This document shows positions 1 through 62,300 of a stretch of 64,000 nucleotides of DNA, in pieces (the stretch's first letter is position 1; every line of letters starts with the position of its first letter). Source of the stretch: Gammaproteobacteria bacterium. GTDB taxonomy: Bacteria > Pseudomonadota > Gammaproteobacteria > CAJXQU01. A program made the position numbers and the translations under genes. The stretch lies in assembly GCA_965238175.1 (NCBI GenBank), contig CBDEGZ010000003.1, forward strand, positions 1,408,001 through 1,472,000, in the 5' to 3' direction. The notes below the pieces were generated by a model that worked only from the letters and a program-made list of their open reading frames with translations, was not told the origin of the DNA and made no database searches.

Positions 1-1
1 G

Positions 2-271
2 AACATGGTCTCTTCAAGCTGGGATGGAAAACGTTTGTACTATACAACATCTCTACTTGGTAACTGGGATAAAAAAGGCGAAGATAACGATCAATTCTTG
101 AAGCTATATCATTGGGATGGCAAAGATATGACAGAGCAATTTGTTGTTGATTTCAACGCTGAAAAATTGGGTCGTGCTCATCAAATCCGATTCGGTGCCT
201 ATTCTCTTTATGGTCAACAAGCAAAATATGGTCAAGAAGAAGGTGCTAATTTAGCGATGCAAGCTGAATAG
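2..271 (+). CDS. mtoX: Methanethiol oxidase / selenium-binding protein SBP56 family, C-terminal part (5' truncated by window edge)
   Basis: SWDGKRLYYTTSLLGNWDK...VDF...GRAHQIRF matches the SBP56/MTO C-terminus; followed by SCO/MauG as in known mto clusters. Confidence 0.85.
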   Translation, partial: NMVSSSWDGKRLYYTTSLLGNWDKKGEDNDQFLKLYHWDGKDMTEQFVVDFNAEKLGRAHQIRFGAYSLYGQQAKYGQEEGANLAMQAE

Positions 272-296
272 TAGGTTGTTGAGTAAAAGCTAATAC

Positions 297-5313: not shown

Positions 5314-6477
5314 ATGTATTCGGATGTTAGTAAAATTATTGATACCTTCGGCGATATTAGCCGGGGTGTAATCGCTGAAGATGCTGAAATTACAGATAGT
5401 CAGGCTAAATGGCCTGAACGTGGTATTCGTATTTTACAGAATGAGGGTTTAGGTGGCCTTACGATCCCTAAAGAGTATGGAGGTTTAGGGCAAGGCACAA
5501 AGACACTTGCTCAGGCTTGTGAAATTATTGGGCAGCATTGTGCAAGTACATCAATTTGTTTTGGTATGCATTGTGTAGCAAGCGCCGTTATTGCTTCAAA
5601 AGTGACAGATTACCAGCAAGAGAACTATTTAATCCCAATCTGCGAAGGCAAGCATCTGACGACTTTATCGCTCAGTGAAGCAGGTTCAGGATCACATTTT
5701 TATTTACCAGAAACACGTATGCAGCGCACATCAATACGTGAGCACAAGGTGCATGGTGAGAAAACATTTGCAACGAATGGTGGGATGGCTGATTCGTACG
5801 TTGTTTCTGCAGTGTCTGAAGACCCTGAACAACCGTCTGGACAGTTTAATTGTGTCATGATCAATAACGATAGCCCAGGGCTTCGCTGGGGAGATCCATG
5901 GGCTGGACTTGGTATGCGAGGAAACAGCTCAAGGAGTATGAATCTCGAAGGTGTTAAGATTTTAGATGATGACATATTAGGAAATTACGGTGATCAGATC
6001 TGGTACGTTTTTAACGTGATCACTCCCTACTTTTTGACTGCGATCGCAGGGGCTTATCTTGGTGTAGCACGTGCTGCGATAGAGGAGGTAAGGCAGCATG
6101 TTAAGGCTAGAGTGTATTCACATAATGGTAAGAGCCTTGCGTCTTCTTCTGTGACTCAATATCAGCTAGGTATTTTGTGGTCGAAATATGCGCGAACGCG
6201 TGCGTTAGTCTATTACGCAACAGAATGCTACGACAGAGATGTTAGTGAGAATATGGTTGATCTGTTTGCGGCCAAGTCAGAAGTTGCAGACTCTGTTGTA
6301 GAAATCGTCAATGATGCAATGACACTTTGTGGGGGTACTGCATATCGAGATGGTTCTAAACTCAATAGAATGTTGAGAGATGCACGTGCTTCACATGTGA
6401 TGTCACCAACGACCGATATGCTTAGAGTATGGACAGGTCGTTATCTACTTGATCAGCCATTACTAACAGATACATGA
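5314..6477 (+). CDS. Acyl-CoA dehydrogenase-fold flavoprotein (no canonical catalytic Glu)
   Basis: LSEAGSGS, GEKTFATNG, GLGMRGNSS, GGTAY, RMLRDARASHVM. Confidence 0.85.
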   Translation: MYSDVSKIIDTFGDISRGVIAEDAEITDSQAKWPERGIRILQNEGLGGLTIPKEYGGLGQGTKTLAQACEIIGQHCASTSICFGMHCVASAVIASKVTDYQQENYLIPICEGKHLTTLSLSEAGSGSHFYLPETRMQRTSIREHKVHGEKTFATNGGMADSYVVSAVSEDPEQPSGQFNCVMINNDSPGLRWGDPWAGLGMRGNSSRSMNLEGVKILDDDILGNYGDQIWYVFNVITPYFLTAIAGAYLGVARAAIEEVRQHVKARVYSHNGKSLASSSVTQYQLGILWSKYARTRALVYYATECYDRDVSENMVDLFAAKSEVADSVVEIVNDAMTLCGGTAYRDGSKLNRMLRDARASHVMSPTTDMLRVWTGRYLLDQPLLTDT

Positions 6478-8408
6478 GCACTCGAATTTCCTTACTTTCA
6501 ACGGAGAAGTCTTTACTTGATTATTTAAATAAGTGGTTGAGTGCTGGAGCCTATTTAGAATATCTCGAACAGCCTGAGTCTCTCTATCATTGTTTAAAAG
6601 AAAATTGTGGTGCGCCGGATATCGTTGTAGTTGGATTAACTGTACAAGAGCCGATCAGGATCGCAGAACATATTCTTGTGATGAAACGCGGGATCAAGAT
6701 TGTTATTCTTTCTACGAACAGCCAACAGAATGTTTTACAGAAGGCCATACAGTTCTCACCTTTCTTAAACTCGGATGTCATTTCATATGAATTCAAAGAA
6801 CAAGAACAACTACTTAAGAAGTTACAGAGTCTAGTCAATATTCTTGAGAAGCAAAGGGTCTATGCAAACACCATCGCTGGAGTAGAGAAAGAAAGAAAGG
6901 CTATTTTACCAACGAGACCATTAGTCGCTAATTATCTAGATACGCTATTAGATAGAATACCCATTGGTATTATTAACCTTGATGCTAAGGGGAGAATTCT
7001 AAATCTCAATAGCCGTGCTCAGAGCTTGTTAAGGCACAGTGAAAGGGAGCTGGTGGGTACGATTTTCCCGACCTTGTTTTCAGATCAAGAAGTACAAAAT
7101 GTTGAGCAGATGGTCGAGCATTCACTTAGAGGTGATGAGGAGAATAATTCACATATAGTGTGCGTATCGTTTTCCGATCAAAAACGATACCTTGATATTA
7201 GTATCTCGTTAATTTCAGGTAATACTTTAGAAGCCATTCTGACCGTTATTATGCAAGAGGTTACAGATAAGGTGCGAGAGGAAAGGAAAAGGAAAAAAGC
7301 TGAGAAAGCATTGAAAGAAAATGAACAGCAGATGAGTTTGGTTATAGATTCAATTCCTGAACTCATTGCCTACGTAGATGCAGATTTGGCTTATCAGTTT
7401 AACAACAAAGCATTTGAGAACTGGTTTGGTTTCACTCGTGATGAAATAAAAGGGAAAAAAGTCTGGCAAGTCATTGGAAAAAAACCATATGCGGTGTTGG
7501 AGAAATACGTCAAGAAAGTAATGGCCGGGGTAACGATCACGTTTGAAGAAAAACTCAACTATCCTTACCGTGGCGAAGTGTATATCCGAAGTACTTATGT
7601 GCCGAATTTTGACGACGAGTGTAAAGTCTGTGGATTCTTTCTACTAACATCTGATATTACACAATCTAAAAATAATGAAGAAGGTGAGAAGAAGCATTTA
7701 CTTGAACTTGCTCACACTTCAAGGATTATTACACTGGGTGAGATGAGTTCGCAATTGTCACATGAACTAGCGCAGCCACTTACTTCTATAGAAACATACA
7801 GTCGCGCATGTATCAAGTTGATTGAAAAAGGTCGGATTGAGATGTCCGAGATAAAAGATACTTTCGAGAATATCTCTAGTCAGGCTATGCGTGCACATGA
7901 TGTTATGCATGAGCTTAGAAACTTTGTTAAAAAAGATGCATCTCGAACAAATGTATCAATTAATGATCTGATCAAATCGGCTATAAAATTATTGCAAATT
8001 GAGTTTCGCGAACCTCAACCAGACATTAATCTTGAGTTGAGTGAAGCACTACCACAGATTTTTGCTGATCGTACATTAATCGAACAAGTTTTGATTAATT
8101 TGGTGAAAAATGCTTTAGAAGCAATGGAGGCACTCGAAAAGTCAAAACGTAATTTGACCTTGCAAACAGAATTGCTAAAAGGCTCTGAGATCATGGTTTC
8201 GGTTCAGGATAGTGGTCCAGGTTTATCGGATTACGAATTCAGTAAAATTTTTGAAGCATTTTATACAACAAAACCTGATGGTATGGGTATGGGGCTGGCA
8301 ATTACTCGATCAGTAATAGATGCACACGGTGGTGAGTTGAAAGTTATGCCAAATAGTTTAGGTGGAACAACATTCAACTTTACCTTACCTACAATAAACA
8401 CTCATTAG
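6474..8408 (+). CDS. Cytoplasmic PAS-PAS sensor histidine kinase (FixL-like) with N-terminal receiver-like domain
   Basis: H-box SHELAQPL, N-box NLVKNA, DSGPG, FYTTKPDGMGMGLAI; ATGA overlap with upstream gene; no obvious TM helix. Confidence 0.9.
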   Translation: MSTRISLLSTEKSLLDYLNKWLSAGAYLEYLEQPESLYHCLKENCGAPDIVVVGLTVQEPIRIAEHILVMKRGIKIVILSTNSQQNVLQKAIQFSPFLNSDVISYEFKEQEQLLKKLQSLVNILEKQRVYANTIAGVEKERKAILPTRPLVANYLDTLLDRIPIGIINLDAKGRILNLNSRAQSLLRHSERELVGTIFPTLFSDQEVQNVEQMVEHSLRGDEENNSHIVCVSFSDQKRYLDISISLISGNTLEAILTVIMQEVTDKVREERKRKKAEKALKENEQQMSLVIDSIPELIAYVDADLAYQFNNKAFENWFGFTRDEIKGKKVWQVIGKKPYAVLEKYVKKVMAGVTITFEEKLNYPYRGEVYIRSTYVPNFDDECKVCGFFLLTSDITQSKNNEEGEKKHLLELAHTSRIITLGEMSSQLSHELAQPLTSIETYSRACIKLIEKGRIEMSEIKDTFENISSQAMRAHDVMHELRNFVKKDASRTNVSINDLIKSAIKLLQIEFREPQPDINLELSEALPQIFADRTLIEQVLINLVKNALEAMEALEKSKRNLTLQTELLKGSEIMVSVQDSGPGLSDYEFSKIFEAFYTTKPDGMGMGLAITRSVIDAHGGELKVMPNSLGGTTFNFTLPTINTH

Positions 8409-8418
8409 TGGGAATGAT

Positions 8419-9033
8419 ATGGAAAATGTATATATAGTTGATGATGATCCAGCGGTACGTGATTCTTTATCGATGCTTCTAAAATCTGAAGATTACAATC
8501 CTACTCAGTTTTCTAATCCTAAGGATTTTCTTAAGAGTGCGGATGGCTTATCCGAGGGTATTATTATTCTTGATCTATGCATGCCAGAACTAACGGGCCT
8601 AGAGGTAATGCAAGAGTTGATCAAACAAGGGAATACATTACCAATTATTTGTATTACTGGGCATGGTGATGTTCCTACTTCAGTTCAGGCGCTTAAAATG
8701 GGCGCTTACGATTTTCTTGAGAAGCCTTATGACTCTTCGTACTTAATAGAACGAATTAAAGACTGTACAAAAGATGAGCTTGGCCAAAGACACTGGGATA
8801 TTAACAGTCTTCGTGCAAAAGAAATGATCACTAAATTAACGCCTAGAGAATATGAAGTGATGGAAGGCATGGTTGATGGTTTTAGAAATAAACAAATTGC
8901 CTATAACATGGATATTAGTATTAGAACTGTCGAGCTTCACCGCGTTCATGTGATGGATAAATTTGAAGCAAAGTCGCTTGCAGATGTTTTGAAGATTGCT
9001 ATTGCAGCAGACTACAAGTACTCAAAAATATAA
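8419..9033 (+). CDS. FixJ/NarL-family response regulator (REC + LuxR HTH)
   Basis: VDDD, LDLCMP, TGHGDV, FLEKP, LTPRE...NKQIA...SIRTVELHR. Confidence 0.93.
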   Translation: MENVYIVDDDPAVRDSLSMLLKSEDYNPTQFSNPKDFLKSADGLSEGIIILDLCMPELTGLEVMQELIKQGNTLPIICITGHGDVPTSVQALKMGAYDFLEKPYDSSYLIERIKDCTKDELGQRHWDINSLRAKEMITKLTPREYEVMEGMVDGFRNKQIAYNMDISIRTVELHRVHVMDKFEAKSLADVLKIAIAADYKYSKI

Positions 9034-9100: not shown

Positions 9101-9916
9101 CTAAAATAGTGTTTCGATCATTTCGTGTAATACAACAATAATTTCCCGATCGTCCGATAAAATATTAGCAATAGCGCATTTACAAGCCGCTGATGGTTCA
9201 AAGCCACGGTTAATTAATTTTGCTGTATAGACTAATAAACGTGTGCTTGCTCCTTCACTCAAGCCGTTACCGACGAGATTACGCGTCATGCCTGCAAGTC
9301 TAACAAGACGTTCACATAATTCCTCTGTGAGGCTTGTTTCATCATGAATGATTTTCGTTTCAAATTTTTCCTCAGGATAATCAAAGTCAATGGAGATAAA
9401 TCGCTGTCTTGTACTTGGTTTAAGATCTTTAACGGCGCTTTGATAACCCGGATTATAGGAGATAGTGAGACTAAAATCATCGGTTGCCGGCAACAGTTCA
9501 CCCAGTTTTTCTAGTGGTAGTATTCTTCGATCGTCACACAGAGGATGTATAACGACTGTTGTATCTTTTCTAGCTTCAACAATTTCATCGAGATAGCAGA
9601 AACAACCGTGCTTTACCGCGATTGTCAAAGGACCATCTTGCCAGACAGTGTTGTCTCCTTGAATTAAATAACGTCCTACAAGGTCAGATGTGGTTAAGTC
9701 ATCGTGGCAGGAGACGGTAATTAATGCTCTTTTGTGGTACCAACTCATATATTCCATGAATCTTGTTTTGCCACACCCTGTTGGGCCTTTTAAAAGGACT
9801 GGAATTTTATCAGCAACGGCAGAGTTGAAAATTTCAATTTCATTGGCTGTTGCTAGGTAGTAAGGTTTTTCTTTAATGTAGTTATTCCAGCTTTCTATTA
9901 CGTTTTCTGAGATCAT
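9101..9916 (-). CDS. CbbQ/NirQ/NorQ-family MoxR AAA+ ATPase
   Basis: GPTGCGKTRF Walker A, YLDEIVEAR Walker B, SYNPGYQ, KDLKPSTRQRF. Confidence 0.93.
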   Translation of the reverse strand: MISENVIESWNNYIKEKPYYLATANEIEIFNSAVADKIPVLLKGPTGCGKTRFMEYMSWYHKRALITVSCHDDLTTSDLVGRYLIQGDNTVWQDGPLTIAVKHGCFCYLDEIVEARKDTTVVIHPLCDDRRILPLEKLGELLPATDDFSLTISYNPGYQSAVKDLKPSTRQRFISIDFDYPEEKFETKIIHDETSLTEELCERLVRLAGMTRNLVGNGLSEGASTRLLVYTAKLINRGFEPSAACKCAIANILSDDREIIVVLHEMIETLF

Positions 9917-9920
9917 ATTT

Positions 9921-12038
9921 TTATGCCGTTAGGTATTTATAAATAGTTGATATTTGTACTGGTAACTGTGAGATATCTGATATTAATTGATAGCGATTTG
10001 ATCCCAGCATATGAGGCAAATAATCGAGGCCTTCTTTATCAAAGGTTAAAACAAAAGGGTTTAAGGCCAGCGCGCTAGCTTCCTGGACAGCTTTGCGTGT
10101 ATCTTCAACTCCATAGTGGCCACGGTAACTATCAACATCATCGGGCTTACCATCTGTGAGCATGAAAAGTATTTTTGTTTTAGCTGAAGTTTCCAATAAA
10201 ATTTTACTCAAATGTCTGATCGAAGCTCCCATGCGAGTATATTGTTGTGGTTGCATAGCAAAAATACGTTGTTTAATCGATTTGCTATAGGGTTCGGAGA
10301 AATATTTGATTGGATAAATACGACAGCTATTTCGACCAGATCCAGAGAAGGCATAGATAGCATGTTGATCACCGAGTTTTTCCAAGACTTTACATAGTAG
10401 CCATGTAGATTGCTTAATGGCTTTATTCTTCCAACCGGATGTAGAACCGCTTATGTCGACAGCGAATAAAATTGCGACATCACGCTTATTTCTGTTGTTA
10501 CGGAGATAGAGTTTTTGATAATCACCTGTGTTTTTATTGATATTTGATCTGGCAGATATCCATGCATCAATATCGATCTCATCACCATCCGATTGATAGC
10601 GTATATATTTTTGATCGTTTAATAATAGATCAAATATTTTTTTGATCCGCTGTTCAGCATATTTCAACGAGTCTTCGGACTCATTGAGATCAGAAATCAT
10701 ATCTTCCGGTAACGGATCGACAGCGACTTCTTTAATGCAACACCAGTCTTTTCTATAATTATGTAATGATGCATCCCATTCCTTATAGTAAAAAATATCG
10801 TCAGCGTTATGTTTTACTACTGATAGATCATCTTGCAATTCACTTTCTTCAGGTTGTACTGGTAATGAGTCCCAAAGTTCCCGTCCAGTCTCACTTATTA
10901 GATCGGATTTTTGTTGCTCTTCTGAAAGAGGAGTACTGCGAATAAAAACGCGACTGTCTGATTTTATCTCCGTGTCTATATTCGCTATTAAGTTATCGAC
11001 ATTTTCAGTGGGGTTCATTATCTGTGGGCTATGAGCATCAGGCGTAAGTCCATTAATAATTTTGTCGGGTAGGAAATCTGGTTGATAACTAACGTTAGGT
11101 AATAGATATTTTTGATCAATTAGTTTGTTTGTGAGATCAATACTGCTTTTGACTGAAGTATGATCATAATCCACAAAAATATTTTCTGGATAATCGACCT
11201 GATTTTTGATATTCAGTGATTCGATATCTCGCCAGATCCCAGGATAGTCATGACGAATAGTTTGATCAATCCTTAATGTTTCGATTGTAGAGAATAATTC
11301 TAGATAACTTTGACCGTATCTTTCTTCAGTATCCTGTAATGCTTGCACGGCGTCCCATGTACGGTAATGAACCTGACCAACGAGATGAAATATTAATATT
11401 TTATAAAGTTTGTAATTATCCGCATAATTATCAAAAGTTGCGATGCTTGAAGGTAAATATAGTTGATGGCCATCAGTATAGGCAAAACTGCCATCCTTAG
11501 TTTGTATCGAAATAGGTATTTGAGATTTGTGAATGCTTATGGCTAATTTATCGATCGTATCTATTACCTTATTTAATTCTACAACGTGGATTTGAACGTT
11601 ATTGATCCTAGTGTAGTTTTTATAGTCACTAATTAAATCGCTAGCCGCTTTTGAATCATTTGCTTGCAGATAATGTTGAACATCCTCGAGCCAATGTTCA
11701 TATTGATCTTGTTCCATATTATCTAAAACGGAAGATGAAGCTAATAAAAGCTGATAAGCATGCTCTGATGACAGATTAGATATCAAGCGTAGTTGTGACA
11801 AGAAAAAAGACTGAGTTGGATGACTACGTTTTGCTAATTCATTAGCCGGTTTTATTATCGGTGCTTTAGATTTTAAATTGCCTAGAATCAATTCAATTCT
11901 AATTTTAAGTTCGGTACTGCTCATACCTCCACACGAACCTGTTTGTTTTGATTCCAGAGAACCATGCTTTTCTGAACGTAACTTGTTTAGTTTATTAGAA
12001 TGGCCTGTACGATCAAACCATTTTGATAAAAACTTCAT
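9921..12038 (-). CDS. NorD/CbbO-family VWA-domain protein
   Basis: YKEWD...YRKDWC, GDEIDIDA, MIDAS DISGS, YTRMGASIRH, LTDGKPDD; ATG start at 12038 preferred over TTG at 12086. Confidence 0.88.
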   Translation of the reverse strand: MKFLSKWFDRTGHSNKLNKLRSEKHGSLESKQTGSCGGMSSTELKIRIELILGNLKSKAPIIKPANELAKRSHPTQSFFLSQLRLISNLSSEHAYQLLLASSSVLDNMEQDQYEHWLEDVQHYLQANDSKAASDLISDYKNYTRINNVQIHVVELNKVIDTIDKLAISIHKSQIPISIQTKDGSFAYTDGHQLYLPSSIATFDNYADNYKLYKILIFHLVGQVHYRTWDAVQALQDTEERYGQSYLELFSTIETLRIDQTIRHDYPGIWRDIESLNIKNQVDYPENIFVDYDHTSVKSSIDLTNKLIDQKYLLPNVSYQPDFLPDKIINGLTPDAHSPQIMNPTENVDNLIANIDTEIKSDSRVFIRSTPLSEEQQKSDLISETGRELWDSLPVQPEESELQDDLSVVKHNADDIFYYKEWDASLHNYRKDWCCIKEVAVDPLPEDMISDLNESEDSLKYAEQRIKKIFDLLLNDQKYIRYQSDGDEIDIDAWISARSNINKNTGDYQKLYLRNNRNKRDVAILFAVDISGSTSGWKNKAIKQSTWLLCKVLEKLGDQHAIYAFSGSGRNSCRIYPIKYFSEPYSKSIKQRIFAMQPQQYTRMGASIRHLSKILLETSAKTKILFMLTDGKPDDVDSYRGHYGVEDTRKAVQEASALALNPFVLTFDKEGLDYLPHMLGSNRYQLISDISQLPVQISTIYKYLTA

Positions 12039-12069
12039 ATTTTTAAAGATTCTACATTCAAATGTAGTT

Positions 12070-12115
12070 AGCTTAGATTGAATCAACAGACGCTTTATAT
12101 ACGTACTTATACTGA
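12070..12115 (-). promoter_or_regulatory. Palindromic box (TACGTA-CTTA-TACTGA on +) with putative -10 TAAGCT for the norD/Q-like genes
   Basis: Box 12100-12115; on minus strand TAAGCT at 12075-12070, 24 nt from box edge. Confidence 0.5.
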
Positions 12116-12373: not shown

Positions 12374-13555
12374 ATGAATAAGTTTTTAATCAATATTCGG
12401 TATTTTATGGCGCCAATACTCATACTAGTGAGTATGTTTGGCGTTTTAATTGGCGGTCCATTTGTATGGACAGGTGTCGTACTTTTTGGTGTTGGGATTA
12501 TCTTAGATACTCTTACCATGTCTATGCATCCAGATGGAGCTGGTGTCGATGAAGATGGTGACACAAATGGTATTCCTGGATTGCAGAACATGGTGATGTA
12601 CATCATGTTGCCAGTATTTGCACTTCTTCAAGTCGCTATGGCTTGGCGGATCTACCAATACGTAGGTGGTGTACCTATGGAACCGGGGATGCTCTTTGGT
12701 ATGTTGCCTGTGCAAAATGGAATAACAGGAGCACAGTTAGTAGGTGCGACTATTTCTACGGGTGTCTTTGCCGGTATCGGTATTATCTATGGGCATGAGT
12801 TAGCTCATACTAAAGGGTTTAGCTTTGTAATTTCACGCTTAATGATGGGTTTAAGTGGTTCTGCACATTTCTGCTATGCACACGTTTATAACCATCATCT
12901 AGAGCTTGCACATGAAGATGATCCTGCAACTTCTCCAAGAGGTCGCGGTATCTATAGGCACTTTTGGTTGTCGCATATGGGGCAATCAAAATTCCTTTTC
13001 CGAATGGAAAAAGAACGTTTGGCTAAATTAGGCAAGTCTTTCATATCTTTAGATAACCGTTGGATCCGCGGTTATTTCATGAGCTTACCAACAATTCTTT
13101 TATTCTTGTGGGTTGGTGGACCTATTGGAATCGCTTGCATGTTTCTGATTTGGACTGTGTCTAATTTTGAATTAGAAGCACTTAACTATATGGAACATTA
13201 TGGTCTTATCCGAGAAAAAGGTCAGCCTATCGATTACCGACACTCATGGGATAACGATAATTTATTCAGTGCTTGGTTCTTTATTGAAATAGGTAGACAA
13301 GGTGATCATCATGATCGTGGTGAAACACATTTTTGGGAATTAGATAACGTTGGATCTCCTAATGCAAGATGGGGATATTTCACAGAGTTTACCTATGCAT
13401 TAGTTCCTCCCCTATATCATGCAGTCATGAAAAATAAGCTTGCGACATGGGACAAAGAGTTTGCTAGTGAAGGTGAGCTTGAGATAGCAGCCCGGATTAA
13501 TAAACAGGCTAATTATGAAGTGTCAGAAGATTTCACTGATTACGCCAAAATATAA
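12374..13555 (+). CDS. AlkB/XylM-family integral-membrane diiron monooxygenase
   Basis: His boxes HELAH, HVYNHH, NYMEHYG, RQGDHH; TM helices; DPATSPRG and ALVPPLY; RBS GAGGTG before ATG 12374. Confidence 0.9.
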   Translation: MNKFLINIRYFMAPILILVSMFGVLIGGPFVWTGVVLFGVGIILDTLTMSMHPDGAGVDEDGDTNGIPGLQNMVMYIMLPVFALLQVAMAWRIYQYVGGVPMEPGMLFGMLPVQNGITGAQLVGATISTGVFAGIGIIYGHELAHTKGFSFVISRLMMGLSGSAHFCYAHVYNHHLELAHEDDPATSPRGRGIYRHFWLSHMGQSKFLFRMEKERLAKLGKSFISLDNRWIRGYFMSLPTILLFLWVGGPIGIACMFLIWTVSNFELEALNYMEHYGLIREKGQPIDYRHSWDNDNLFSAWFFIEIGRQGDHHDRGETHFWELDNVGSPNARWGYFTEFTYALVPPLYHAVMKNKLATWDKEFASEGELEIAARINKQANYEVSEDFTDYAKI

Positions 13556-13648
13556 TTCATAACAACTATGTTAATAGGTCTGGGACATCAAGTCTCAGAT
13601 CTATATTTAATAAAGTTACGAATATTAAAAAAGGTAAAGGAGAACATC

Positions 13649-14008
13649 ATGAGTGAAAGTTTATATGACAGGCTTGGTGGACATGATTCTATAAAGGAAC
13701 TTGCAGCAACAGTCTTTGCAAACCACTGCAAGAATCCATCGATAAAAACGCGTTATGCGGACAGTGATACAGATGAAGTAGTGCGAAAAGTAACAGAGTT
13801 TATGTGTGCAGGTTTTGGTGGTACAGAAACTTATACCGGACAAGATATGTTGACTGCACATACAGGAATGAACATTTCTGAAGCTGAGTTTAATGCGGTA
13901 GTTGATGACGTTATGTCAGCACTGGACACTCATCGTGTTGGTGATGTTGAGAAAAATGAAATCCTTTGTGCTCTTTGGTCAATGAGACCAGAGATAGTAC
14001 ATGTATAA
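13649..14008 (+). CDS. Group I truncated (2/2) hemoglobin, cytoplasmic
   Basis: SLYDRLGG, GG-YTGQDM..AH.GMNISEAEF; RBS AGGAG before ATG 13649. Confidence 0.92.
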   Translation: MSESLYDRLGGHDSIKELAATVFANHCKNPSIKTRYADSDTDEVVRKVTEFMCAGFGGTETYTGQDMLTAHTGMNISEAEFNAVVDDVMSALDTHRVGDVEKNEILCALWSMRPEIVHV

Positions 14009-14057
14009 AAGGATTTATAGAAAGACAACATAAATAAAAATAAAGAGAGGTTCTAAG

Positions 14058-14237
14058 ATGAAAGTTGAATGGGATGAGAAAGCATGTCAACACGCAGGAG
14101 TATGCGTTAAAACATTACCAGCTGTTTTTAAAATAGAGGATGGAAGTTTCGTTATAGATCCTCCAGCAGCCTCTGAAGAAGAAGTAAGGGATGTTCTCGC
14201 TAAATGTCCATCAGGTGCTTTAACTGCGAAAGATTAA
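14058..14237 (+). CDS. Small divergent 4Fe-4S monocluster ferredoxin (YjdI/Fer4_19-like), 59 aa, absent from ORF track
   Basis: Hand translation MKVEWDEKACQHAGVCVKTLPAVF...AKCPSGALTAKD; RBS GAGAGG. Confidence 0.85.
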   Translation: MKVEWDEKACQHAGVCVKTLPAVFKIEDGSFVIDPPAASEEEVRDVLAKCPSGALTAKD

Positions 14238-14287
14238 AAACAATTTTTCATATAATAAAAATTATATAGTTTTTGGAGGAGAGTTAA

Positions 14288-14974
14288 ATGTCTATTGGAG
14301 ATCATTTATCAGACGTAAAAGTACTTTGGGGGGTTGCAGGTTGTGCAAACACAAGTAAATGCCTTCTAACCGCAGCAGAAAAGGGGGTTGATATCGACGG
14401 AAGATCAGTTGATATGCAATCAGAGTCAGCAATGAACGAGATATTAAGTTTCTCACCATTTGGCTTGCTCCCAGTCCTGAAAGATGTTGATTTTTACGTC
14501 TATGGAACAAGCGCAATAATGTCTTACCTTGATGATAAAGGTTTCGGCAATTCATTGGTTCCACGTAATGCAGTTGCAAGAACTCAACAATATCAATGGA
14601 TTCATATTGCGAACGACGTATTTTCTAAAGCAGTAGAGAAATTAAGTGGTGATAGTAATGATGCTTCAGCAATTTCTGAAGTGAAAAATATATTGTCAGC
14701 GTTAGATGCACGGTTAGGATCGAAACAACAAAGAGGTGATTATATTATTGGTGATTTCAGTCTTGCTGATATTCACTGGGCACCATACATTCATCACTGC
14801 TGTTTATATGGGCAAGAATCATTAGTTGATGCTCTTCCAAATGTTAAAACATGGTGGAGCCATATGAAAATAAGAAAGAGTACAAGCAAAGAAAATTACA
14901 CAGCTTATACCGTCTTGCCATCACTTGATGAAATTCGTAGTAACAAGTTGCGATCTGTCAGTATTAATGTCTAA
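14288..14974 (+). CDS. Glutathione S-transferase family protein
   Basis: SPFGLLPVLKD, AIMSYLD, YIIGDFSLADI. Confidence 0.88.
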   Translation: MSIGDHLSDVKVLWGVAGCANTSKCLLTAAEKGVDIDGRSVDMQSESAMNEILSFSPFGLLPVLKDVDFYVYGTSAIMSYLDDKGFGNSLVPRNAVARTQQYQWIHIANDVFSKAVEKLSGDSNDASAISEVKNILSALDARLGSKQQRGDYIIGDFSLADIHWAPYIHHCCLYGQESLVDALPNVKTWWSHMKIRKSTSKENYTAYTVLPSLDEIRSNKLRSVSINV

Positions 14975-15011
14975 AGTTTTTGAATTATTAACTCGGCAAG
15001 GATGAGTATTT

Positions 15012-16106
15012 ATGTTTGGTTTTTTTAAAAACAAAAAACAAAATTATGAGGCTGAGGTTATTTCTGCTAGGAAGACGCTGACAGTAAAGCCTGGTGAGAA
15101 TTTACTAAAAACAGCACTTGAAGCAGGAATAGCCTGGCCGAATGATTGTCGGGTTGGCAGTTGTGGCACATGTAAATGTCGATTGGTAGATGGAAAGATC
15201 AAACCACTTGCCGACTTTAGTTACGTACTTGAAGGAGACGAACTTAGAGATGGTTACATACTTGCTTGCCAGACGGCTTTAAAAACTAATATCAAAGTAG
15301 ATGTTGAATTACTTGAAACGAATGGTGTTGAGCAAACTAAACTTTGGGGATCTGATGCGCTTATTTCAGAGATCAATGATTTAACTCATGACATTAAGGA
15401 AATAGTTGTTCAGATAACTGATCCAAAGCTTTTAGCTTCTAGCGATATTTTGTACAAGGCTGGAGAGTGTGCAGAGCTTAAATTGCCTCATATTGATCAG
15501 GCACGATCCTATTCATTTGCAAGTGCTCCAAAGCCAGGGCAAAAAGATTTTCGTTTTTACATCAGATTAGTTCCTGGTGGTGAATTTACTACTTGGTTAT
15601 TTGATGCAGATAGAACAGGTGAAGCATTAAAAATATCGGGGCCATATGGTGGTTTTTGGTTAAGAGAAGAGACTACACCGATTATTTGTGTTGCAGGTGG
15701 CAGTGGCATGAGTGCAATTATTGGGATTTTACAAGGTGCAATGCAAGAAAATATTAAACGTGATGTACGTTTTCTATTTGGTGCGAGAACACAAGCAGAT
15801 CTTTATTGTGACGAAATAATTAGTGAATTAGCTAACTATTGGGAAAGTCAGAATCTTGGGAAATTCGAATATATACCTTGTTTATCTGAGGAGCCTGAAG
15901 GCACTTCATGGCAAGGTAATAAGGGATTTGTAACAGAGTTTATAACTAATGGTTCAAGTGATCAGATAGTTGGACAAGCTTATCTATGTGGTCCTCCGGG
16001 GATGATCGATGCCGCTATCAGCGTTTTTGAAGAAAATGGCATGAATAGCGAAGCAATATTCTTCGATAAATTCCTCGATAGTAGCAGTATGCCTGGAGGC
16101 AGGTAA
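15012..16106 (+). CDS. 2Fe-2S ferredoxin - FAD/NAD(P)H reductase (XylA-like monooxygenase electron transfer component)
   Basis: CRVGSCGTC...LACQ, RSYS, GPYG, AGGSG, YLCGPPGM, FDKF. Confidence 0.92.
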   Translation: MFGFFKNKKQNYEAEVISARKTLTVKPGENLLKTALEAGIAWPNDCRVGSCGTCKCRLVDGKIKPLADFSYVLEGDELRDGYILACQTALKTNIKVDVELLETNGVEQTKLWGSDALISEINDLTHDIKEIVVQITDPKLLASSDILYKAGECAELKLPHIDQARSYSFASAPKPGQKDFRFYIRLVPGGEFTTWLFDADRTGEALKISGPYGGFWLREETTPIICVAGGSGMSAIIGILQGAMQENIKRDVRFLFGARTQADLYCDEIISELANYWESQNLGKFEYIPCLSEEPEGTSWQGNKGFVTEFITNGSSDQIVGQAYLCGPPGMIDAAISVFEENGMNSEAIFFDKFLDSSSMPGGR

Positions 16107-16170
16107 TTATTAAAAGCTTAAGGCACACAAAAAAGCCTTATTTAAAAACTAAAAGTAGGAGGTAAGGAAA

Positions 16171-16377
16171 ATGGCTTCATTTAGAGCGCTAATAGTAATG
16201 GCAATTTGGACAGGAATTGTTGGTTATGGTCTGTACCAAATAGGTGCACACGTTAATTACAGAGATCCTTTGTGGGCACTTGGAACAGGCACAGCATTGC
16301 TAATAACTCATATGGTTAATATGTACATTTATTTCAAAGTGGCAGGAGAAAAACCATTTCAGTGGTTCGCTAGTTAG
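16171..16377 (+). CDS. Small two-TM membrane protein of unknown function
   Basis: 68 aa, two hydrophobic segments, strong RBS (GGAGG/AAGGA), inside the operon. Confidence 0.7.
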   Translation: MASFRALIVMAIWTGIVGYGLYQIGAHVNYRDPLWALGTGTALLITHMVNMYIYFKVAGEKPFQWFAS

Positions 16378-16538
16378 CCTGGTTTTTTATTAGTAATTAG
16401 TGGGAAGAATAAGTGGAACACTAGCAAGTGACATAAAAAAGTATGTCTCTTTCGATAAGTCAAATGAGGGTTACTTATTGTTAGATAACATAGATAGATA
16501 TAAAAATAATTTAACGTATCCTGAGGGAGTATTTAACA

Positions 16539-17753
16539 ATGAAACGAAAAATATTAGCGGTAGTGATGGCGTCGTTATATATACCAGCAAGCCAAGCTGG
16601 AACATTTGGTACGGATTTAAATAATAACATGTTGCCAGCCACAGGGGGGATGGGTGGAGCATCTATTGCACGTACGGTCGAACCTGCAGCGGCAGTGTTT
16701 GGAAATCCAGCAACTTTAACAGAGTACAACGAAGGCACTAGTTTTACTTTTGGAGCAACATTTTTTGATCCGACACTTGAGGCTGAGCATGATGGTAGTA
16801 TCACTGGTACAGCTTGGGAAGGGACATCCAATGCAAATGACTATTTGGTACCTACAGTTGCTGTCACACAAGCATTTAGCCCTAACCTGGTAGTTGGACT
16901 AGGTTTAACTGCAACTTCAGGTGTTGGTTCAGATTTTAGAGGCACACCGAATAGTTTAGACCCTACTGGGGAGTTAATATTATTTGCTGCAAACCTAGGG
17001 GTTGGATATAAATTATCCGACAACCTATCACTGGGTGCGACGGCAACAATAGGTAATGGCTATTTTCAAGCCAGTTTGACTAATGATACAGGTTCAGCGC
17101 ATGATTTTGGCTTCAGAATTACAGCTGGTGCAAAGTATGATATTGGTGCTACAAGTATCGGTGCTTATTACCGAAGTAAGCTAAATATTGAATATGAACA
17201 ATATATTGCTAGAGGTGATGGTACATTTTGGGATGATCATGTTGCACAACCAGAAGAATTCGCAATTGGGATAGCGAATAACAGTTTGGTGGGAGGAAAC
17301 CTCCAGGTTAATTTAGACGTTATTCATAAAGACTGGTCAGATGCACAGTTCTACAAGGATTTCTATCGTGATCAAACAGTAGTTGCACTTGGCACACAAT
17401 TAACTACAGGACCGGCTCAATGGAGAATTGGATATAGTCATGCACGAGATCCTATCAAAAGAAACCTGCCACTTACGACTGTTATAGGCATAGGAAATAA
17501 CACAGAAATCGGTGCGCCAGGTGGTGGTAGTATTCCAGTTACGGGTGCTGTTGTGGAATATTTCCAAGCAACGAATGCAGCTGCGATATGGGAAGATACA
17601 ATAACAGCAGGTGTTGGTTATCAATTGTTACCTAATATTAAAATCGATTTACATGCAGCGTATACACTAGATGAAGATCAACAAATTGGTGGTACTAAAG
17701 TTGATATTGATGCTTGGCAACTTGGTTTTGGATTCACATGGTCTTTTAAATAA
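16539..17753 (+). CDS. FadL/TodX/TbuX-family outer-membrane channel
   Basis: Signal peptide; GMGGASIA..AAAVFGNPATL hatch motif; beta-barrel C-terminal aromatic pattern FGFTWSF. Confidence 0.85.
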   Translation: MKRKILAVVMASLYIPASQAGTFGTDLNNNMLPATGGMGGASIARTVEPAAAVFGNPATLTEYNEGTSFTFGATFFDPTLEAEHDGSITGTAWEGTSNANDYLVPTVAVTQAFSPNLVVGLGLTATSGVGSDFRGTPNSLDPTGELILFAANLGVGYKLSDNLSLGATATIGNGYFQASLTNDTGSAHDFGFRITAGAKYDIGATSIGAYYRSKLNIEYEQYIARGDGTFWDDHVAQPEEFAIGIANNSLVGGNLQVNLDVIHKDWSDAQFYKDFYRDQTVVALGTQLTTGPAQWRIGYSHARDPIKRNLPLTTVIGIGNNTEIGAPGGGSIPVTGAVVEYFQATNAAAIWEDTITAGVGYQLLPNIKIDLHAAYTLDEDQQIGGTKVDIDAWQLGFGFTWSFK

Positions 17754-17789
17754 ACCAGGTAAATAAGAAAAAATAAGAGAGAAATTAAT

Positions 17790-18275
17790 ATGAAAAGTTT
17801 AACGAAAAACCTACGAGTATTATTCGTAATTTGTGCGCTGTTCATGTCGTATAGTGTATATGCTGCTGATCATAGTGATGCACCCGTTGGTCCATCACTA
17901 TTTGATCGCATTGGTGGAGAAGCTAAAGCGCATCAAATTGTTGGTGATATTTGGACTAACCATACTCAAAATCCTATCGTCAAAGATCGATTTGCAAATA
18001 GTGATCCTGCCTATGTAAAAGCAAGGGTGTATGAAATCTTTGCTGCGGCAACTGGTGGACCTGTTGAGTACACTGGCAAAGATATGAAAACCACCCATGC
18101 AGGAATGAACATTAGTGAAATGGAATTTAATGCGGTAGTAGACGATGTACTAGCAGCTCTTGCTAAACATGGAGTAGCCCAGCAGGAGCAAAATGAAGTA
18201 CTAGCAATTCTTTGGTCTGTTAGAGGCGATATTGTAAATTCAAACATAACAACTAAAACACTAACTGCTGAATAA
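17790..18275 (+). CDS. Group I truncated hemoglobin with Sec signal peptide (periplasmic)
   Basis: Signal ending SVYA-A; SLFDRIGG, TGGPVEYTGKDMKTTHAGMNISEMEF. Confidence 0.9.
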   Translation: MKSLTKNLRVLFVICALFMSYSVYAADHSDAPVGPSLFDRIGGEAKAHQIVGDIWTNHTQNPIVKDRFANSDPAYVKARVYEIFAAATGGPVEYTGKDMKTTHAGMNISEMEFNAVVDDVLAALAKHGVAQQEQNEVLAILWSVRGDIVNSNITTKTLTAE

Positions 18276-18317
18276 AAAAGTATTAGCTGTTTTCAACGCA
18301 ATGTAGAAAACAAAGCT

Positions 18318-18357
18318 AAACATCAGGCTCTAATTCATTAAAGGGCCTGATGTTTTT
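18318..18357 (+). terminator. Rho-independent terminator ending the monooxygenase operon
   Basis: AAACATCAGGCTCT / AGGGCCTGATGTTT stem followed by T-run. Confidence 0.75.
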
Positions 18358-18432: not shown

Positions 18433-18708
18433 ATGCCTAAGTATCTTATTGAAAGAGATATACCAGACGCTGGTAGTTTGAAAGCAGAAGAATTAACTGG
18501 AATCTCACAAAAATCTTGTTCAATTTTAAAAGAAATGGGGCCTGAAATTCAGTGGGTTCATAGTTATGTAACAGACAATAAAGTATATTGTGTGTACAAC
18601 GCACCTGATGTAGAAGCAATTCAAACACATGCTGAAAAAGGTGGTTTTCCAGCAAACAGTATTTCTCAGATCAAAACAGTAATTGATCCTACAACTGCTG
18701 AAGGTTAA
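18433..18708 (+). CDS. DUF4242-family small protein
   Basis: MPKYLIERDIP...IQWVHSYV...KVYCVYNAP...HAEKGGFPAN. Confidence 0.8.
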   Translation: MPKYLIERDIPDAGSLKAEELTGISQKSCSILKEMGPEIQWVHSYVTDNKVYCVYNAPDVEAIQTHAEKGGFPANSISQIKTVIDPTTAEG

Positions 18709-18748
18709 TAGTTTAATTGATGAATTATTTTTAAGATCCTTAACTCTA

Positions 18749-62299: not shown

Positions 62300-62300
62300 G

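What the first reader, a model, noticed from the sequence alone, without database searches (positions are those of the whole stretch)
12374..18357. Candidate undescribed methyl-sulfide (e.g. DMS) monooxygenase: AlkB/XylM-type operon with globins, GST and FadL, placed between MTO and Sox
Seen: one co-oriented unit of diiron monooxygenase, globin, mini-ferredoxin, GST, XylA-like reductase, small TM protein, FadL-type channel and periplasmic globin, then a terminator. No rubredoxin, alcohol/aldehyde dehydrogenase, beta-oxidation or ring-cleavage genes are in the window. The neighbours are methanethiol oxidase, Sox, SQR and PDO. Known: AlkB/XylM enzymes hydroxylate methyl groups, and the characterised DMS monooxygenase (DmoAB) is a flavin enzyme unrelated to this family. 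Inference: hydroxylating the S-methyl group of DMS gives a hemithioacetal that collapses to methanethiol + formaldehyde, feeding MTO and then SQR/PDO/Sox. Other small hydrophobic sulfur compounds (DMDS, alkyl sulfides) are alternative substrates.
Basis: partly seen in the sequence, partly recalled or inferred. Interest (0 to 1): 0.92.

Follow-up and report, generated by a model that had tools for sequence, protein, structure and literature searches.

The report
Candidate membrane-bound dimethylsulfide monooxygenase operon
This operon encodes an unusual relative of the membrane alkane and xylene hydroxylases that travels with the methanethiol oxidase gene across marine bacteria and is switched on by dimethylsulfide in Methylophaga, so it is the best candidate yet for the missing enzyme that starts breakdown of this climate-relevant gas in those bacteria.

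Summary
Window 12374-18357 (+) is one co-oriented unit: AlkB/XylM-type membrane diiron monooxygenase (MO), truncated globin, 59-aa ferredoxin, GST, XylA-like reductase (39% identical to XylA of pWW0), 68-aa membrane protein, FadL-type outer-membrane protein, secreted globin, then a terminator hairpin. mtoX ends at window base 193.

The MO belongs to a tight clade (at least 55% identical inside, at most 34% to anything else). All 82 members examined carry Gln in place of the first His of the fourth histidine box; 125 of 125 other AlkB/XylM-type sequences keep His.

SBP56/MtoX was found in 46 of 50 further clade-bearing genomes. In an even sample of 400 genomes of the class it was in 15 of 16 clade carriers against 30 of 384 others. 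In the Methylophaga sulfidovorans genus, 3 of 37 genomes carry the MO and the same 3 carry mtoX. In three other families the MO operon directly abuts mtoX.

The M. thiooxydans orthologues of MO and reductase map to MDMS009_226 and MDMS009_61, published as highly up-regulated on DMS but read there as lipid repair.

Catalysis is untested. I give 0.55 that the MO converts DMS to methanethiol plus formaldehyde.

The parts
12374..13555 (+). Membrane diiron monooxygenase (MO) of the AlkB/XylM superfamily; the proposed DMS methyl hydroxylase. The ORF is open from GTG 12362, but orthologues align from the ATG at 12374.
   Evidence: Pfam FA_desaturase. AlkB structures 8sbb and 8f6t at E 2.4e-29 and 9.4e-24. 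His boxes HELAH, HVYNHH and NYMEHYG are present, and the fourth box is RQGDHH. It is the only PF00487 protein in the genome.
13649..14008 (+). Cytoplasmic truncated globin (119 aa counted from the internal ATG; the ORF is open from 13568).
   Evidence: Pfam Bac_globin, E 9.6e-12. The M. thiooxydans orthologue is named group 1 truncated hemoglobin by NCBI. A His in the conserved DMxxxH stretch, which I take to be the haem-binding His, is invariant in 18 sequences.
14058..14237 (+). 59-aa single-cluster ferredoxin.
   Evidence: Pfam Fer4_19, E 5.2e-15. Present downstream of the MO in 24 of 69 loci.
14288..14974 (+). Glutathione S-transferase with Cys at the catalytic position.
   Evidence: GST_N and GST_C domains. 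Cys19 aligns with the residue that I recall as the catalytic Ser of Phi-class GST 6to3. It is kept in at least 95% of 35 orthologues.
15012..16106 (+). NAD(P)H-dependent reductase with 2Fe-2S, FAD and NAD domains (XylA/BenC type).
   Evidence: Pfam Fer2, FAD_binding_6 and NAD_binding_1. 39% identical to the reductase next to xylM on pWW0 and 41% to that of an AlkB-like system. The orthologue EEF81069.1 maps to MDMS009_61.
16171..16377 (+). 68-aa hydrophobic protein of unknown role.
   Evidence: No Pfam hit. Its orthologue is named DUF1145 by UniRef. Present in 31 of 69 loci.
16539..17753 (+). Outer-membrane beta-barrel, probably a FadL/TodX-type channel for hydrophobic molecules.
   Evidence: Pfam OMP_b-brl only. 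The orthologue at 74% identity is named OmpP1/FadL/TodX by NCBI.
17790..18275 (+). Truncated globin with an N-terminal leader, predicted to be periplasmic.
   Evidence: Pfam Bac_globin, E 1.7e-14. The leader is read from the translation. 49% identical to the first globin.
18320..18357 (+). Intrinsic terminator hairpin with a T-run.
   Evidence: Sequence and fold.
9101..12086 (-). Divergent CbbQ/NorQ-type AAA+ ATPase and a 721-aa VWA protein; possibly a metal-centre chaperone pair. Their link to the operon rests on position only.
   Evidence: Pfam AAA_5 + CbbQ_C, and VWA. The same divergent position is kept in G002, the Methylophaga-type loci and G145.
5314..9033 (+). ACAD-like flavoprotein, PAS histidine kinase and LuxR-type response regulator; the likely regulators.
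   Evidence: Pfam. The acad-HK-RR trio lies directly upstream of the MO in L038, L053 and L112, and beside it in L111.
1..2294 (+). 3' end of mtoX (to base 193) and the SCO1-MauG maturation gene (297-2294): the proposed next step of the pathway.
   Evidence: SBP56 match at G000:C3:1406985-1408193. Pfam CCP_MauG + SCO1.

Best explanation
The operon encodes a membrane-bound, NAD(P)H-dependent dimethylsulfide (DMS) monooxygenase system. It is the first step of a DMS to methanethiol to sulfide/sulfate pathway.

Proposed course (every step is inferred unless marked otherwise):
1. DMS crosses the outer membrane through the FadL-type channel.
2. The XylA-like reductase, possibly through the 59-aa ferredoxin, passes electrons to the integral-membrane diiron MO.
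3. The MO hydroxylates one S-methyl group.
4. The hemithioacetal falls apart into methanethiol and formaldehyde.
5. Methanethiol goes to the periplasmic MtoX encoded 12 kb upstream. Sulfide goes to the SQR, PDO and Sox genes downstream. Formaldehyde goes to the H4MPT route; two Fae genes are present in the genome (shown).

The Cys-type GST and the two truncated globins are accessory parts. I suggest they handle thiols, mixed disulfides, sulfide or O2.

Shown here: the anatomy, the clade, its altered histidine box, its co-occurrence and clustering with mtoX, and (from a paper) its induction on DMS.
Inferred: the substrate, the reaction and the accessory roles.
For: 1. Family and partners.
- The MO is AlkB-like (8sbb, E 2.4e-29).
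- Its reductase is 39% identical to XylA of pWW0.
- There is no rubredoxin in the genome.
- No alcohol or aldehyde dehydrogenase appeared among the 55 window ORFs scanned.

2. A separate clade.
- In the 50%-identity library there is one full-length representative at 69% plus fragments. The next protein is at 34% (193 against 627 bits).
- The clade is monophyletic with SH-aLRT 100 on a stem of 0.89 changes per site.
- The fourth box reads RQxDHH in 82 of 82 clade genes. His stands there in 125 of 125 other sequences, including named AlkB and XylM.

3. Co-occurrence with SBP56/MtoX.
- 46 of 50 further clade genomes have it.
- In the class sample of 400 scored genomes, 15 of 16 carriers have it against 30 of 384 others.
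- In the window's genus, MO and SBP56 are both in G000 and G002 and neither is in the other 5.
- In the genus of M. sulfidovorans, the MO is in 3 of 37 genomes and SBP56 in the same 3.

4. Clustering in different gene orders.
- G018: HK-RR-MO-globin-reductase-mtoX-SCO1/MauG.
- G277, a 1.1-Mb genome: MO-fdx-GST-reductase-OMP-MtoX-SCO1/MauG-Prx, all on one strand.
- G440: MO-small-globin-mtoX.
- G145: 7.8 kb apart. The window: 12.2 kb apart.

5. Expression.
- Proteins identical to the G145 translations are named by NCBI as M. thiooxydans EEF81234.1 (MO) and EEF81069.1 (reductase).
- EEF81292.1 carries the tag MDMS009_284. The paper gives PDO = MDMS009_284 and sqrB = MDMS009_274 (section 20). Together with EEF81282.1, this fixes an offset of 81008.
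- With that offset, MO = MDMS009_226 and reductase = MDMS009_61.
- The paper lists exactly these two among transcripts highly up-regulated on DMS against methanol (PMC6548844, sections 22 and 26).
- The same paper states that no known DMS-degrading gene (dmoA, ddh) is present in the Methylophaga genomes and that a monooxygenase route may exist.

6. A 2026 review passage lists only DmoA, DdhA, DsoB and Tmm as DMS consumers.
Against: - No enzyme assay exists for any clade member.
- The paper's introduction reports that earlier work found no DMS monooxygenase activity in DMS-grown M. thiooxydans and proposed a methyltransferase. A membrane enzyme that needs its reductase could have been lost in extracts, but that is my excuse, not a finding.
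- The authors themselves read the induction as membrane-lipid repair under H2O2 stress.
- The fold changes are in supplements that I could not open.
- Physical linkage is not general. Only 1 of 60 best-matching loci with at least 6 kb on both sides has mtoX within the locus. 22 of 69 are 'solo' copies without any operon partner. Three solo-type loci that I scanned have a MerR regulator and/or an unknown protein of about 232 aa beside the MO.
- 4 of 50 clade genomes (1.3-1.6 Mb MAGs; three have titles naming Rhodobiaceae) and 1 of 16 in the class sample (80% complete) show no SBP56.
- One of these loci puts the MO beside SDR, EthD, FMO/BVMO-like and Rieske oxygenase genes, which suggests another substrate there.
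- 18 of the 32 genomes that I class as MtoX-type lack the MO.
- Related genomes are not independent, so the contingency tables overstate the case.
- Induction on DMS would also be expected for an enzyme that deals with methanethiol, DMDS or stress.
Confidence: 0.55

Rival explanations
1. The MO belongs to the DMS/methanethiol regulon but acts on another small hydrophobic organosulfur compound or performs another reaction. Examples are S-oxygenation of DMS to DMSO, oxidation of dimethyl disulfide or alkyl methyl sulfides, or removal of a toxic by-product of methanethiol oxidation. The true DMS-cleaving enzyme would then be something else in the island (ACAD-like flavoprotein, NMO-like protein, the 401-aa ORF) or elsewhere.
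For: Co-occurrence, clustering and induction tie the operon to methanethiol metabolism, not to a particular reaction. The Cys-type GST fits disulfide or thiol chemistry. The island holds other conserved enzymes of unknown role. From recall, not from a call: AlkB of Pseudomonas can sulfoxidise methyl thioethers.
Against: The compact cluster of the 1.1-Mb genome G277 keeps the MO, ferredoxin, GST, reductase, OMP and MtoX but none of the ACAD-like, NMO-like or 401-aa genes. The MO is the only enzyme of a known oxygenase family that I found in that cluster. Methanethiol must be made from DMS for MtoX to be useful on DMS, and DMSO formation would not supply it.
Confidence: 0.22
2. It is a hydrocarbon (short alkane, alkene, ether or aromatic methyl) hydroxylase like its AlkB/XylM relatives. 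Its association with mtoX would reflect a shared niche or a shared genomic island.
For: Superfamily membership and the XylA-like reductase. A FadL/TodX-type channel is typical of hydrocarbon uptake. The Rhodobiaceae-type locus sits with SDR, BVMO-like and EthD genes. The nearest outgroups lie in alkane-type clusters.
Against: No alcohol or aldehyde dehydrogenase or CoA ligase appeared among the window ORFs scanned or in the compact loci. Presence and absence match mtoX exactly inside two genera. The MO directly abuts mtoX in three families with different gene orders. It is induced by DMS in a methylotroph.
Confidence: 0.1
3. It is a lipid desaturase or hydroxylase that repairs or remodels membrane lipids under the peroxide, sulfide and thiol stress of methanethiol oxidation, as the authors of PMC6548844 proposed.
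For: The Pfam family is FA_desaturase. The authors' reading is quoted. Methanethiol oxidase makes H2O2 (paper).
Against: The sequence groups with the AlkB/XylM hydroxylases, with an NYxEHYG box and AlkB structures at E 2.4e-29. An outer-membrane channel for uptake and a dedicated reductase, ferredoxin and GST are not needed to modify the cell's own lipids. The operon is kept, in two copies, in 1.1-Mb genomes.
Confidence: 0.05

Closest known systems
AlkB alkane 1-monooxygenase (rubredoxin-dependent; structures 8sbb, 8f6t)
   Same: Integral-membrane non-haem diiron hydroxylase of the FA_desaturase superfamily. HELxH, HxxxHH and NYxEHYG boxes are present. About 30% identity over residues 119-360.
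   Different: The first His of the fourth box (LQRHSDHH) is Gln in all 82 clade genes. There is no rubredoxin in the genome. The reductase is of the Fer2-FNR type. There are no alcohol or aldehyde dehydrogenase neighbours. AlkB lies on a separate long branch in the tree.
XylMA xylene monooxygenase of plasmid pWW0
   Same: A two-component layout of membrane hydroxylase plus Fer2-FAD-NAD reductase. The reductases are 39% identical. It hydroxylates a methyl group.
   Different: XylM is only 27% identical to the MO and keeps His in the fourth box. On pWW0, xylM sits with benzyl-alcohol-type and benzaldehyde dehydrogenase genes, not with mtoX, globins or a GST.
Reductase-coupled or reductase-fused AlkB-like hydroxylases (Hydrocarboniclastica plasmid; Polaromonas CJ2 pPNAP01)
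   Same: These are the nearest outgroup group in the tree, at 29-32% identity, and use the same kind of reductase (41% identical).
   Different: They keep RHSHHH. They lie with an AraC regulator and, in Polaromonas, with GMC oxidoreductase, fatty-acid CoA ligase and aldehyde dehydrogenase genes, which is an alkane-type context.
DmoAB dimethylsulfide monooxygenase of Hyphomicrobium
   Same: The proposed overall reaction is the same: DMS + O2 + NADH gives methanethiol + formaldehyde. The link to MtoX is the same. The reaction is as cited in the paper and review passages.
   Different: From recall: DmoA is a soluble FMNH2-dependent luciferase-family enzyme. The MO here is a membrane diiron protein, unrelated in sequence family. 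The paper reports dmoA absent from the Methylophaga genomes.

Membership tests
AlkB/XylM-type membrane diiron hydroxylases | FA_desaturase-superfamily domain with significant similarity to solved AlkB | tested here: met
   PF00487 E 1.3e-23; 8sbb E 2.4e-29 and 8f6t E 9.4e-24.
AlkB/XylM-type membrane diiron hydroxylases | His boxes 1-3 (HELxH, HxxxHH, NYxEHYG) | tested here: met
   HELAH, HVYNHH and NYMEHYG in the window protein. By my patterns, boxes 1 and 2 are found in 82 of 82 clade genes and box 3 in 76 of 82.
AlkB/XylM-type membrane diiron hydroxylases | Fourth His box with three histidines (RHSDHH, or HINHH in XylM). That this box supplies metal ligands is recalled from the AlkB structure papers. 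| tested here: not met
   RQ[GAC]DHH in 82 of 82 clade genes. His stands at that column in 125 of 125 non-clade sequences, including 6 named AlkB/XylM.
AlkB (rubredoxin-dependent alkane hydroxylase) | Rubredoxin electron donor | tested here: not met
   PF00301 was not found in the 97.7%-complete genome. The control search detected it in 7 of 14 known genomes.
XylMA-type two-component monooxygenase | Fer2-FAD-NAD reductase encoded with the hydroxylase | tested here: met
   Domains; 39% identity to the pWW0 reductase. A reductase lies downstream in 37 of 69 loci.
XylMA-type two-component monooxygenase | Clustering with benzyl alcohol and benzaldehyde dehydrogenase or other aromatic catabolic genes | tested here: not met
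   None among the window ORFs scanned. pWW0 has them beside xylM.
DmoAB flavin-dependent DMS monooxygenase | Luciferase-like FMNH2-dependent oxygenase subunit | tested here: not met
   The MO matches only FA_desaturase and no NCBIfam model. The resemblance is functional only.
Group I truncated haemoglobins | Bac_globin fold with a proximal (haem-binding) His | tested here: met
   PF01152 E 9.6e-12 and 1.7e-14. His71 in the DMxxxH stretch is invariant in 18 sequences. Its identity as the proximal His is my reading, not a tool result. Orthologues are named group 1 truncated hemoglobin by NCBI. The distal-pocket residues were not assessed against a reference.
FadL/TodX outer-membrane channels | Match to the FadL/Toluene_X family model | tested here: inconclusive
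   Pfam returned only OMP_b-brl, E 4.4e-8. The orthologue at 74% identity is named OmpP1/FadL/TodX by NCBI and UniRef.

The most novel reading that the evidence does not exclude
A widespread, previously unrecognised enzyme class. It would be a membrane-bound diiron DMS monooxygenase with an eight-His-plus-Gln metal site, derived from the AlkB/XylM hydroxylases. It would be the missing first step of DMS catabolism in Methylophaga and in many marine sulfur-oxidising Gammaproteobacteria, including sponge-associated and 1.1-Mb streamlined lineages. Dedicated cytoplasmic and periplasmic truncated haemoglobins and a Cys-type GST would work as built-in O2, thiol or sulfide handlers. It would give a new marker gene for the oceanic DMS sink.
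Probability: 0.5. Interest if true: 0.9.

Novelty: new variant of a known kind. Interest (0 to 1): 0.85.

Why it matters
DMS is the main biogenic sulfur gas leaving the ocean. Bacterial consumption limits how much escapes.

13C-DMS labelling repeatedly points to Methylophaga and related Gammaproteobacteria as active DMS consumers (passages of PMC9563715). Yet their genomes hold none of the known DMS-degrading genes, and the first enzyme has been an open question (PMC6548844).

This clade offers a concrete, testable candidate:
- It has 344 matching stretches among the 185,579 species genomes scanned.
- It has many marine metagenome relatives.
- MO-like contigs occur in a marine metatranscriptome.

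If confirmed, it would add a marker gene for DMS-sink surveys. It would extend AlkB-type chemistry to S-demethylation. It would also provide a natural variant of the AlkB metal site (Gln for His) and an unusual pairing of a membrane hydroxylase with truncated haemoglobins.

Tried and rejected
- Complex prediction (MO alignment A2 with globin alignment A3) was sent three times in the same form. The first two were answered 'busy'. Nothing was folded, so I make no claim that the globin binds the MO.
- A search for fused, longer forms of the MO (696-2000 aa) found none at E <= 1e-60. The tool calls this weak evidence.
- RNA runs. Four RNA-seq runs of one study hold the whole M. thiooxydans-type operon. 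They are kept as contigs, which cannot give expression levels, and their growth conditions are not told. I therefore draw no DMS-versus-methanol comparison from them.
- In run X1, one 6,499-base contig spans L107 10578-17076, from upstream of the MO to just past the SCO4226-like gene. Run X3 breaks elsewhere. A contig across genes does not show one transcript. Parts without cover in X8 and X13 mean nothing.
- The simple terminator scan found no site after the last globin. Reading and folding the sequence did.
- NCBIfam gave no family for the MO, globins, ferredoxin, VWA protein or the 401-aa ORF.
- Literature searches for a prior description returned nothing that describes an AlkB-type DMS enzyme: 'DMS monooxygenase'+AlkB+methanethiol gave 0 papers; Methylophaga+dimethylsulfide+'alkane monooxygenase' gave 1 unrelated paper; dimethylsulfide+'fatty acid desaturase'+'methanethiol oxidase' gave only PMC6548844; a four-term search gave 19 papers, of which 15 were listed. 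Subscription journals are mostly not in that library.
- I considered that the ACAD-like gene could be an SfnB/DszC-type sulfur monooxygenase. Its best NCBIfam match is an Rv1679-type acyl-CoA dehydrogenase at 233 bits, under the 600-bit cut-off, and SfnB scores 103 bits. It overlaps the kinase start and was not found in the fetched stretches that hold the compact G277 cluster and the G018 cluster. I therefore treat it as regulatory or accessory.
- The remaining 18 clade genomes (loci L087-L106) were not searched for SBP56. I gave 50 of the 68 distinct genomes, because one call takes at most 50.
- For the tree I kept the first 60 of the 119 full-length representatives and dropped 59 for time.
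- Genomes G231 and G385 are flagged unpublished. Both are MO-negative and SBP56-positive and are counted within the 30 of 384.

Full report
**What is there.**

Window 12374-18357 on the + strand holds eight co-oriented genes with short gaps.
- A 393-397-aa FA_desaturase-family membrane protein, the MO. Its best solved relatives are the alkane hydroxylases AlkB 8sbb (E 2.4e-29) and 8f6t (E 9.4e-24).
- A truncated globin.
- A 59-aa Fer4_19 ferredoxin.
- A GST.
- A Fer2-FAD-NAD reductase. It is 39% identical to the reductase beside xylM on pWW0 and 41% to that of an AlkB-like system.
- A 68-aa hydrophobic protein.
- A 404-aa outer-membrane barrel. Its M. thiooxydans orthologue (74% identical) is named OmpP1/FadL/TodX.
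- A second globin with a leader peptide.

A 12-bp hairpin with a T-run closes the unit at 18320-18357.

The genome has no rubredoxin. The MO is its only FA_desaturase-family protein.

The surroundings are a sulfur island.
- mtoX ends at base 193 and is followed by a SCO1-MauG fusion and a thiol-disulfide oxidoreductase.
- Downstream lie SoxCD-like, SoxY, SoxA and SoxB-like genes, an MBL-fold gene, an SQR-like gene and SulP.
- From about 34.5 kb onward the window holds housekeeping and polysaccharide genes.

**A distinct clade with an altered metal site.**

In a library of representatives at 50% identity, the MO has one full-length relative at 69% plus fragments. The next protein stands at 34% identity (627 against 193 bits).

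I built a tree of 77 sequences: 11 clade members, 6 named AlkB/XylM references taken from plasmids, and the 60 best of 119 representatives. The clade is one branch with SH-aLRT 100 on a stem of 0.89 changes per site. It is nested among reductase-coupled AlkB-like proteins and lies apart from rubredoxin-type AlkB and from XylM.

The first three histidine boxes are kept. The fourth reads RQ(G/A/C)DHH in 82 of 82 clade genes. All 125 non-clade sequences have His at that column. From recall of the AlkB structure papers, that His is one of the iron ligands. The clade therefore fails one defining feature of AlkB/XylM while keeping the rest.

Genome-level co-occurrence with SBP56/MtoX is strong.
- Among 61 relatives, the clade is in G000, G002, G018 and G058. 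All four have an SBP56 match of 145-160 bits. Of the other 57, three have SBP56: two of a different type scoring about 580-600 bits and one weak.
- Of 50 further clade-bearing genomes reached through the search for related loci, 46 have SBP56.
- In an even sample of 400 scored genomes of the class, the clade is in 16 (12 families) and SBP56 in 45. 15 of the 16 have both, against 30 of 384 without the clade. The 30 include the two unpublished genomes G231 and G385.
- By my reading of the score classes, the MtoX-like type is in 14 of 16 carriers and 18 of 384 others.
- Inside the window's genus, both genes are in 2 of 7 species and neither in the other 5.
- Inside the genus of M. sulfidovorans, both are in the same 3 of 37.

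Related genomes are not independent. The within-genus agreement and the spread over a dozen families count for more than any p-value.

**Gene order.**

The operon is rearranged but stays with mtoX in several lineages.
- G018: HK-RR-MO-globin-reductase-mtoX-SCO1/MauG.
- The 1.1-Mb genome G277: MO-ferredoxin-GST-reductase-90 aa-OMP-MtoX-SCO1/MauG-Prx on one strand.
- G440: MO-small-globin-mtoX.
- G145: 7.8 kb apart, with nearly the same set of island genes as the window in another order.
- The window and G002: 12 kb apart.
- G235 and G401: 17.6 kb apart.

Against this, linkage is rare among the 80 best loci.
- Only 1 of 60 with at least 6 kb on both sides has mtoX inside the locus.
- 22 of 69 with at least 6 kb downstream are solo copies.
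- Of the three solo-type loci I scanned, two have a divergent MerR regulator and all three have an unknown protein of about 232 aa beside the MO.
- Many of these genomes have two or three MO copies.
- Downstream partners among the 69 loci: reductase 37, GST 34, small protein 31, ferredoxin 24, globin 19, OMP 13.

**Expression.**

Exact look-ups of the G145 translations returned NCBI records of M. thiooxydans: MO = EEF81234.1, reductase = EEF81069.1, GST, both globins and the FadL-type protein.

EEF81292.1 carries the string MDMS009_284. The paper gives PDO = MDMS009_284 and sqrB = MDMS009_274 (section 20), and the SQR-like protein is EEF81282.1. Both fit an offset of 81008. That offset makes MO = MDMS009_226 and reductase = MDMS009_61.

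Kröber and Schäfer (PMC6548844; I read sections 20, 21, 22 and 29 and some passages) list 'a fatty acid desaturase (MDMS009_226)' among transcripts highly up-regulated on DMS. [quoted passage not shown] They interpret both as lipid homeostasis. In the same text they note that the DMS-cleaving enzyme is missing and that a monooxygenase route may exist.

I could not see the fold changes, which are in the supplements.

**Mechanism proposed.**

Shown: family, partners, clade, co-occurrence, clustering, induction.

Inferred:
- DMS enters through the FadL-type channel.
- Electrons pass from NAD(P)H through the reductase (perhaps through the ferredoxin) to the MO.
- The MO hydroxylates an S-methyl group.
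- The hemithioacetal gives methanethiol and formaldehyde.
- MtoX, SQR, PDO and Sox take the sulfur onward.
- The H4MPT route takes the formaldehyde. Two Fae genes are present.

The GST has Cys at the position that aligns with what I recall as the catalytic Ser of Phi-class GSTs. It is conserved in at least 95% of 35 orthologues. From recall, that points to thiol-disulfide or deglutathionylation chemistry rather than conjugation. Recycling of methanethiol-glutathione mixed disulfides is my guess.

The globins are closely related to each other (49%). They keep an invariant His in the DMxxxH stretch, which I take to be the haem ligand, and an invariant Asn-His pair earlier in the sequence. O2 supply, thiol or sulfide buffering, and electron transfer are all open. 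The complex prediction that could have informed this was unavailable.

The divergent CbbQ/NorQ-type ATPase and VWA protein may be a metal-centre chaperone. This rests on position only.

**What speaks against.**

- No assay exists.
- Earlier extracts showed no DMS monooxygenase activity (as cited in the paper).
- Linkage to mtoX is not general.
- A small alphaproteobacterial subclade has a different context. It has an RQCDHH box, there is no SBP56 in its 4 genomes, and the one locus I scanned (L039) has SDR, EthD, BVMO-like and Rieske neighbours. This hints at another substrate.
- Induction on DMS would also fit a role further down the pathway or in stress.

**Comparison and novelty.**

It works like XylMA and AlkB in layout. 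It would do the same overall reaction as DmoAB, to which it is unrelated.

It is not a full member of AlkB/XylM by the histidine-box criterion, and it is not rubredoxin-dependent.

Four literature searches and a June 2026 review passage show no description of such an enzyme.

I rate it a new variant of a known kind.
- Probability that the operon belongs to DMS/methanethiol catabolism: about 0.85.
- Probability that the MO is the DMS-to-methanethiol monooxygenase: about 0.55.

**Verdict.**

The finding makes a long-standing question (how Methylophaga and its relatives attack DMS) directly testable with one expression construct.

Noticed in passing
window 9101-12086 (-): A CbbQ/NorQ-type AAA+ ATPase and a 721-aa VWA protein diverge from the MO operon. 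The same arrangement is seen in G002, the Methylophaga-type loci and G145. A VWA gene also lies about 5 kb downstream in L038, L057 and L065. They may be a chaperone for the metal centre of the MO or of MtoX.
   Followed up: partly
window 5314-9033 (+): An acyl-CoA-dehydrogenase-like gene overlaps the start of a PAS histidine kinase gene, which is followed by a LuxR-type regulator. This trio lies directly upstream of the MO in L038, L053 and L112 (G361), and beside it in L111 (G440).
   Followed up: partly
window 19910-21115 (+): A 401-aa ORF with no Pfam or NCBIfam match is conserved in the island in G002, the Methylophaga-type loci, L034, L053 and G145. Its C-terminal half looks to me like a class I methyltransferase fold, but that is an impression only.
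   Followed up: partly
L094 8878-11926; L023 7901-10994; L041 10007-11981: 'Solo' MO copies without a reductase or GST. L094 and L023 have a divergent MerR-family regulator upstream. All three have a conserved protein of about 232 aa with no Pfam family downstream. Many of these genomes hold two or three MO copies.
   Followed up: partly
L039 4274-18029 (MAG title names Rhodobiaceae); also L040, L044, L060: A subclade with an RQCDHH box whose four genomes showed no SBP56. In L039 the MO, globin and a 114-aa Fer2 ferredoxin sit beside SDR, EthD, FMO/BVMO-like, two Rieske oxygenase and an OYE-type flavoprotein gene. The substrate may differ there.
   Followed up: partly
G277 and G436 (L109, L110): Genomes of only 1.1 Mb (99% complete) keep two MO copies and one mtoX. 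This suggests that the system is central to their metabolism.
   Followed up: partly
window 18433-19816 (+): An SCO4226-like small protein and a nitronate-monooxygenase/FabK-like flavoprotein follow the terminator. They are conserved after the operon in G002, the Methylophaga-type loci and G145.
   Followed up: no
G235 C9:151286-168417; G401 C2:88339-105578: Two mtoX copies with identical scores lie 16 kb apart in each genome, about 18 kb from the MO. This looks like a duplicated segment.
   Followed up: no
L107 15680-16681 laid with run X13: A marine metatranscriptome holds MO-like contigs at 90-99% likeness with contig depths up to 255. Other operon genes have thin cover. The tool warns that contig depths do not rank genes.
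   Followed up: no
window 61853-62972 (-): A PCuAC copper chaperone gene and a SCO1/SenC gene lie at the far end of the window, apart from the mtoX-linked SCO1-MauG fusion.
   Followed up: no
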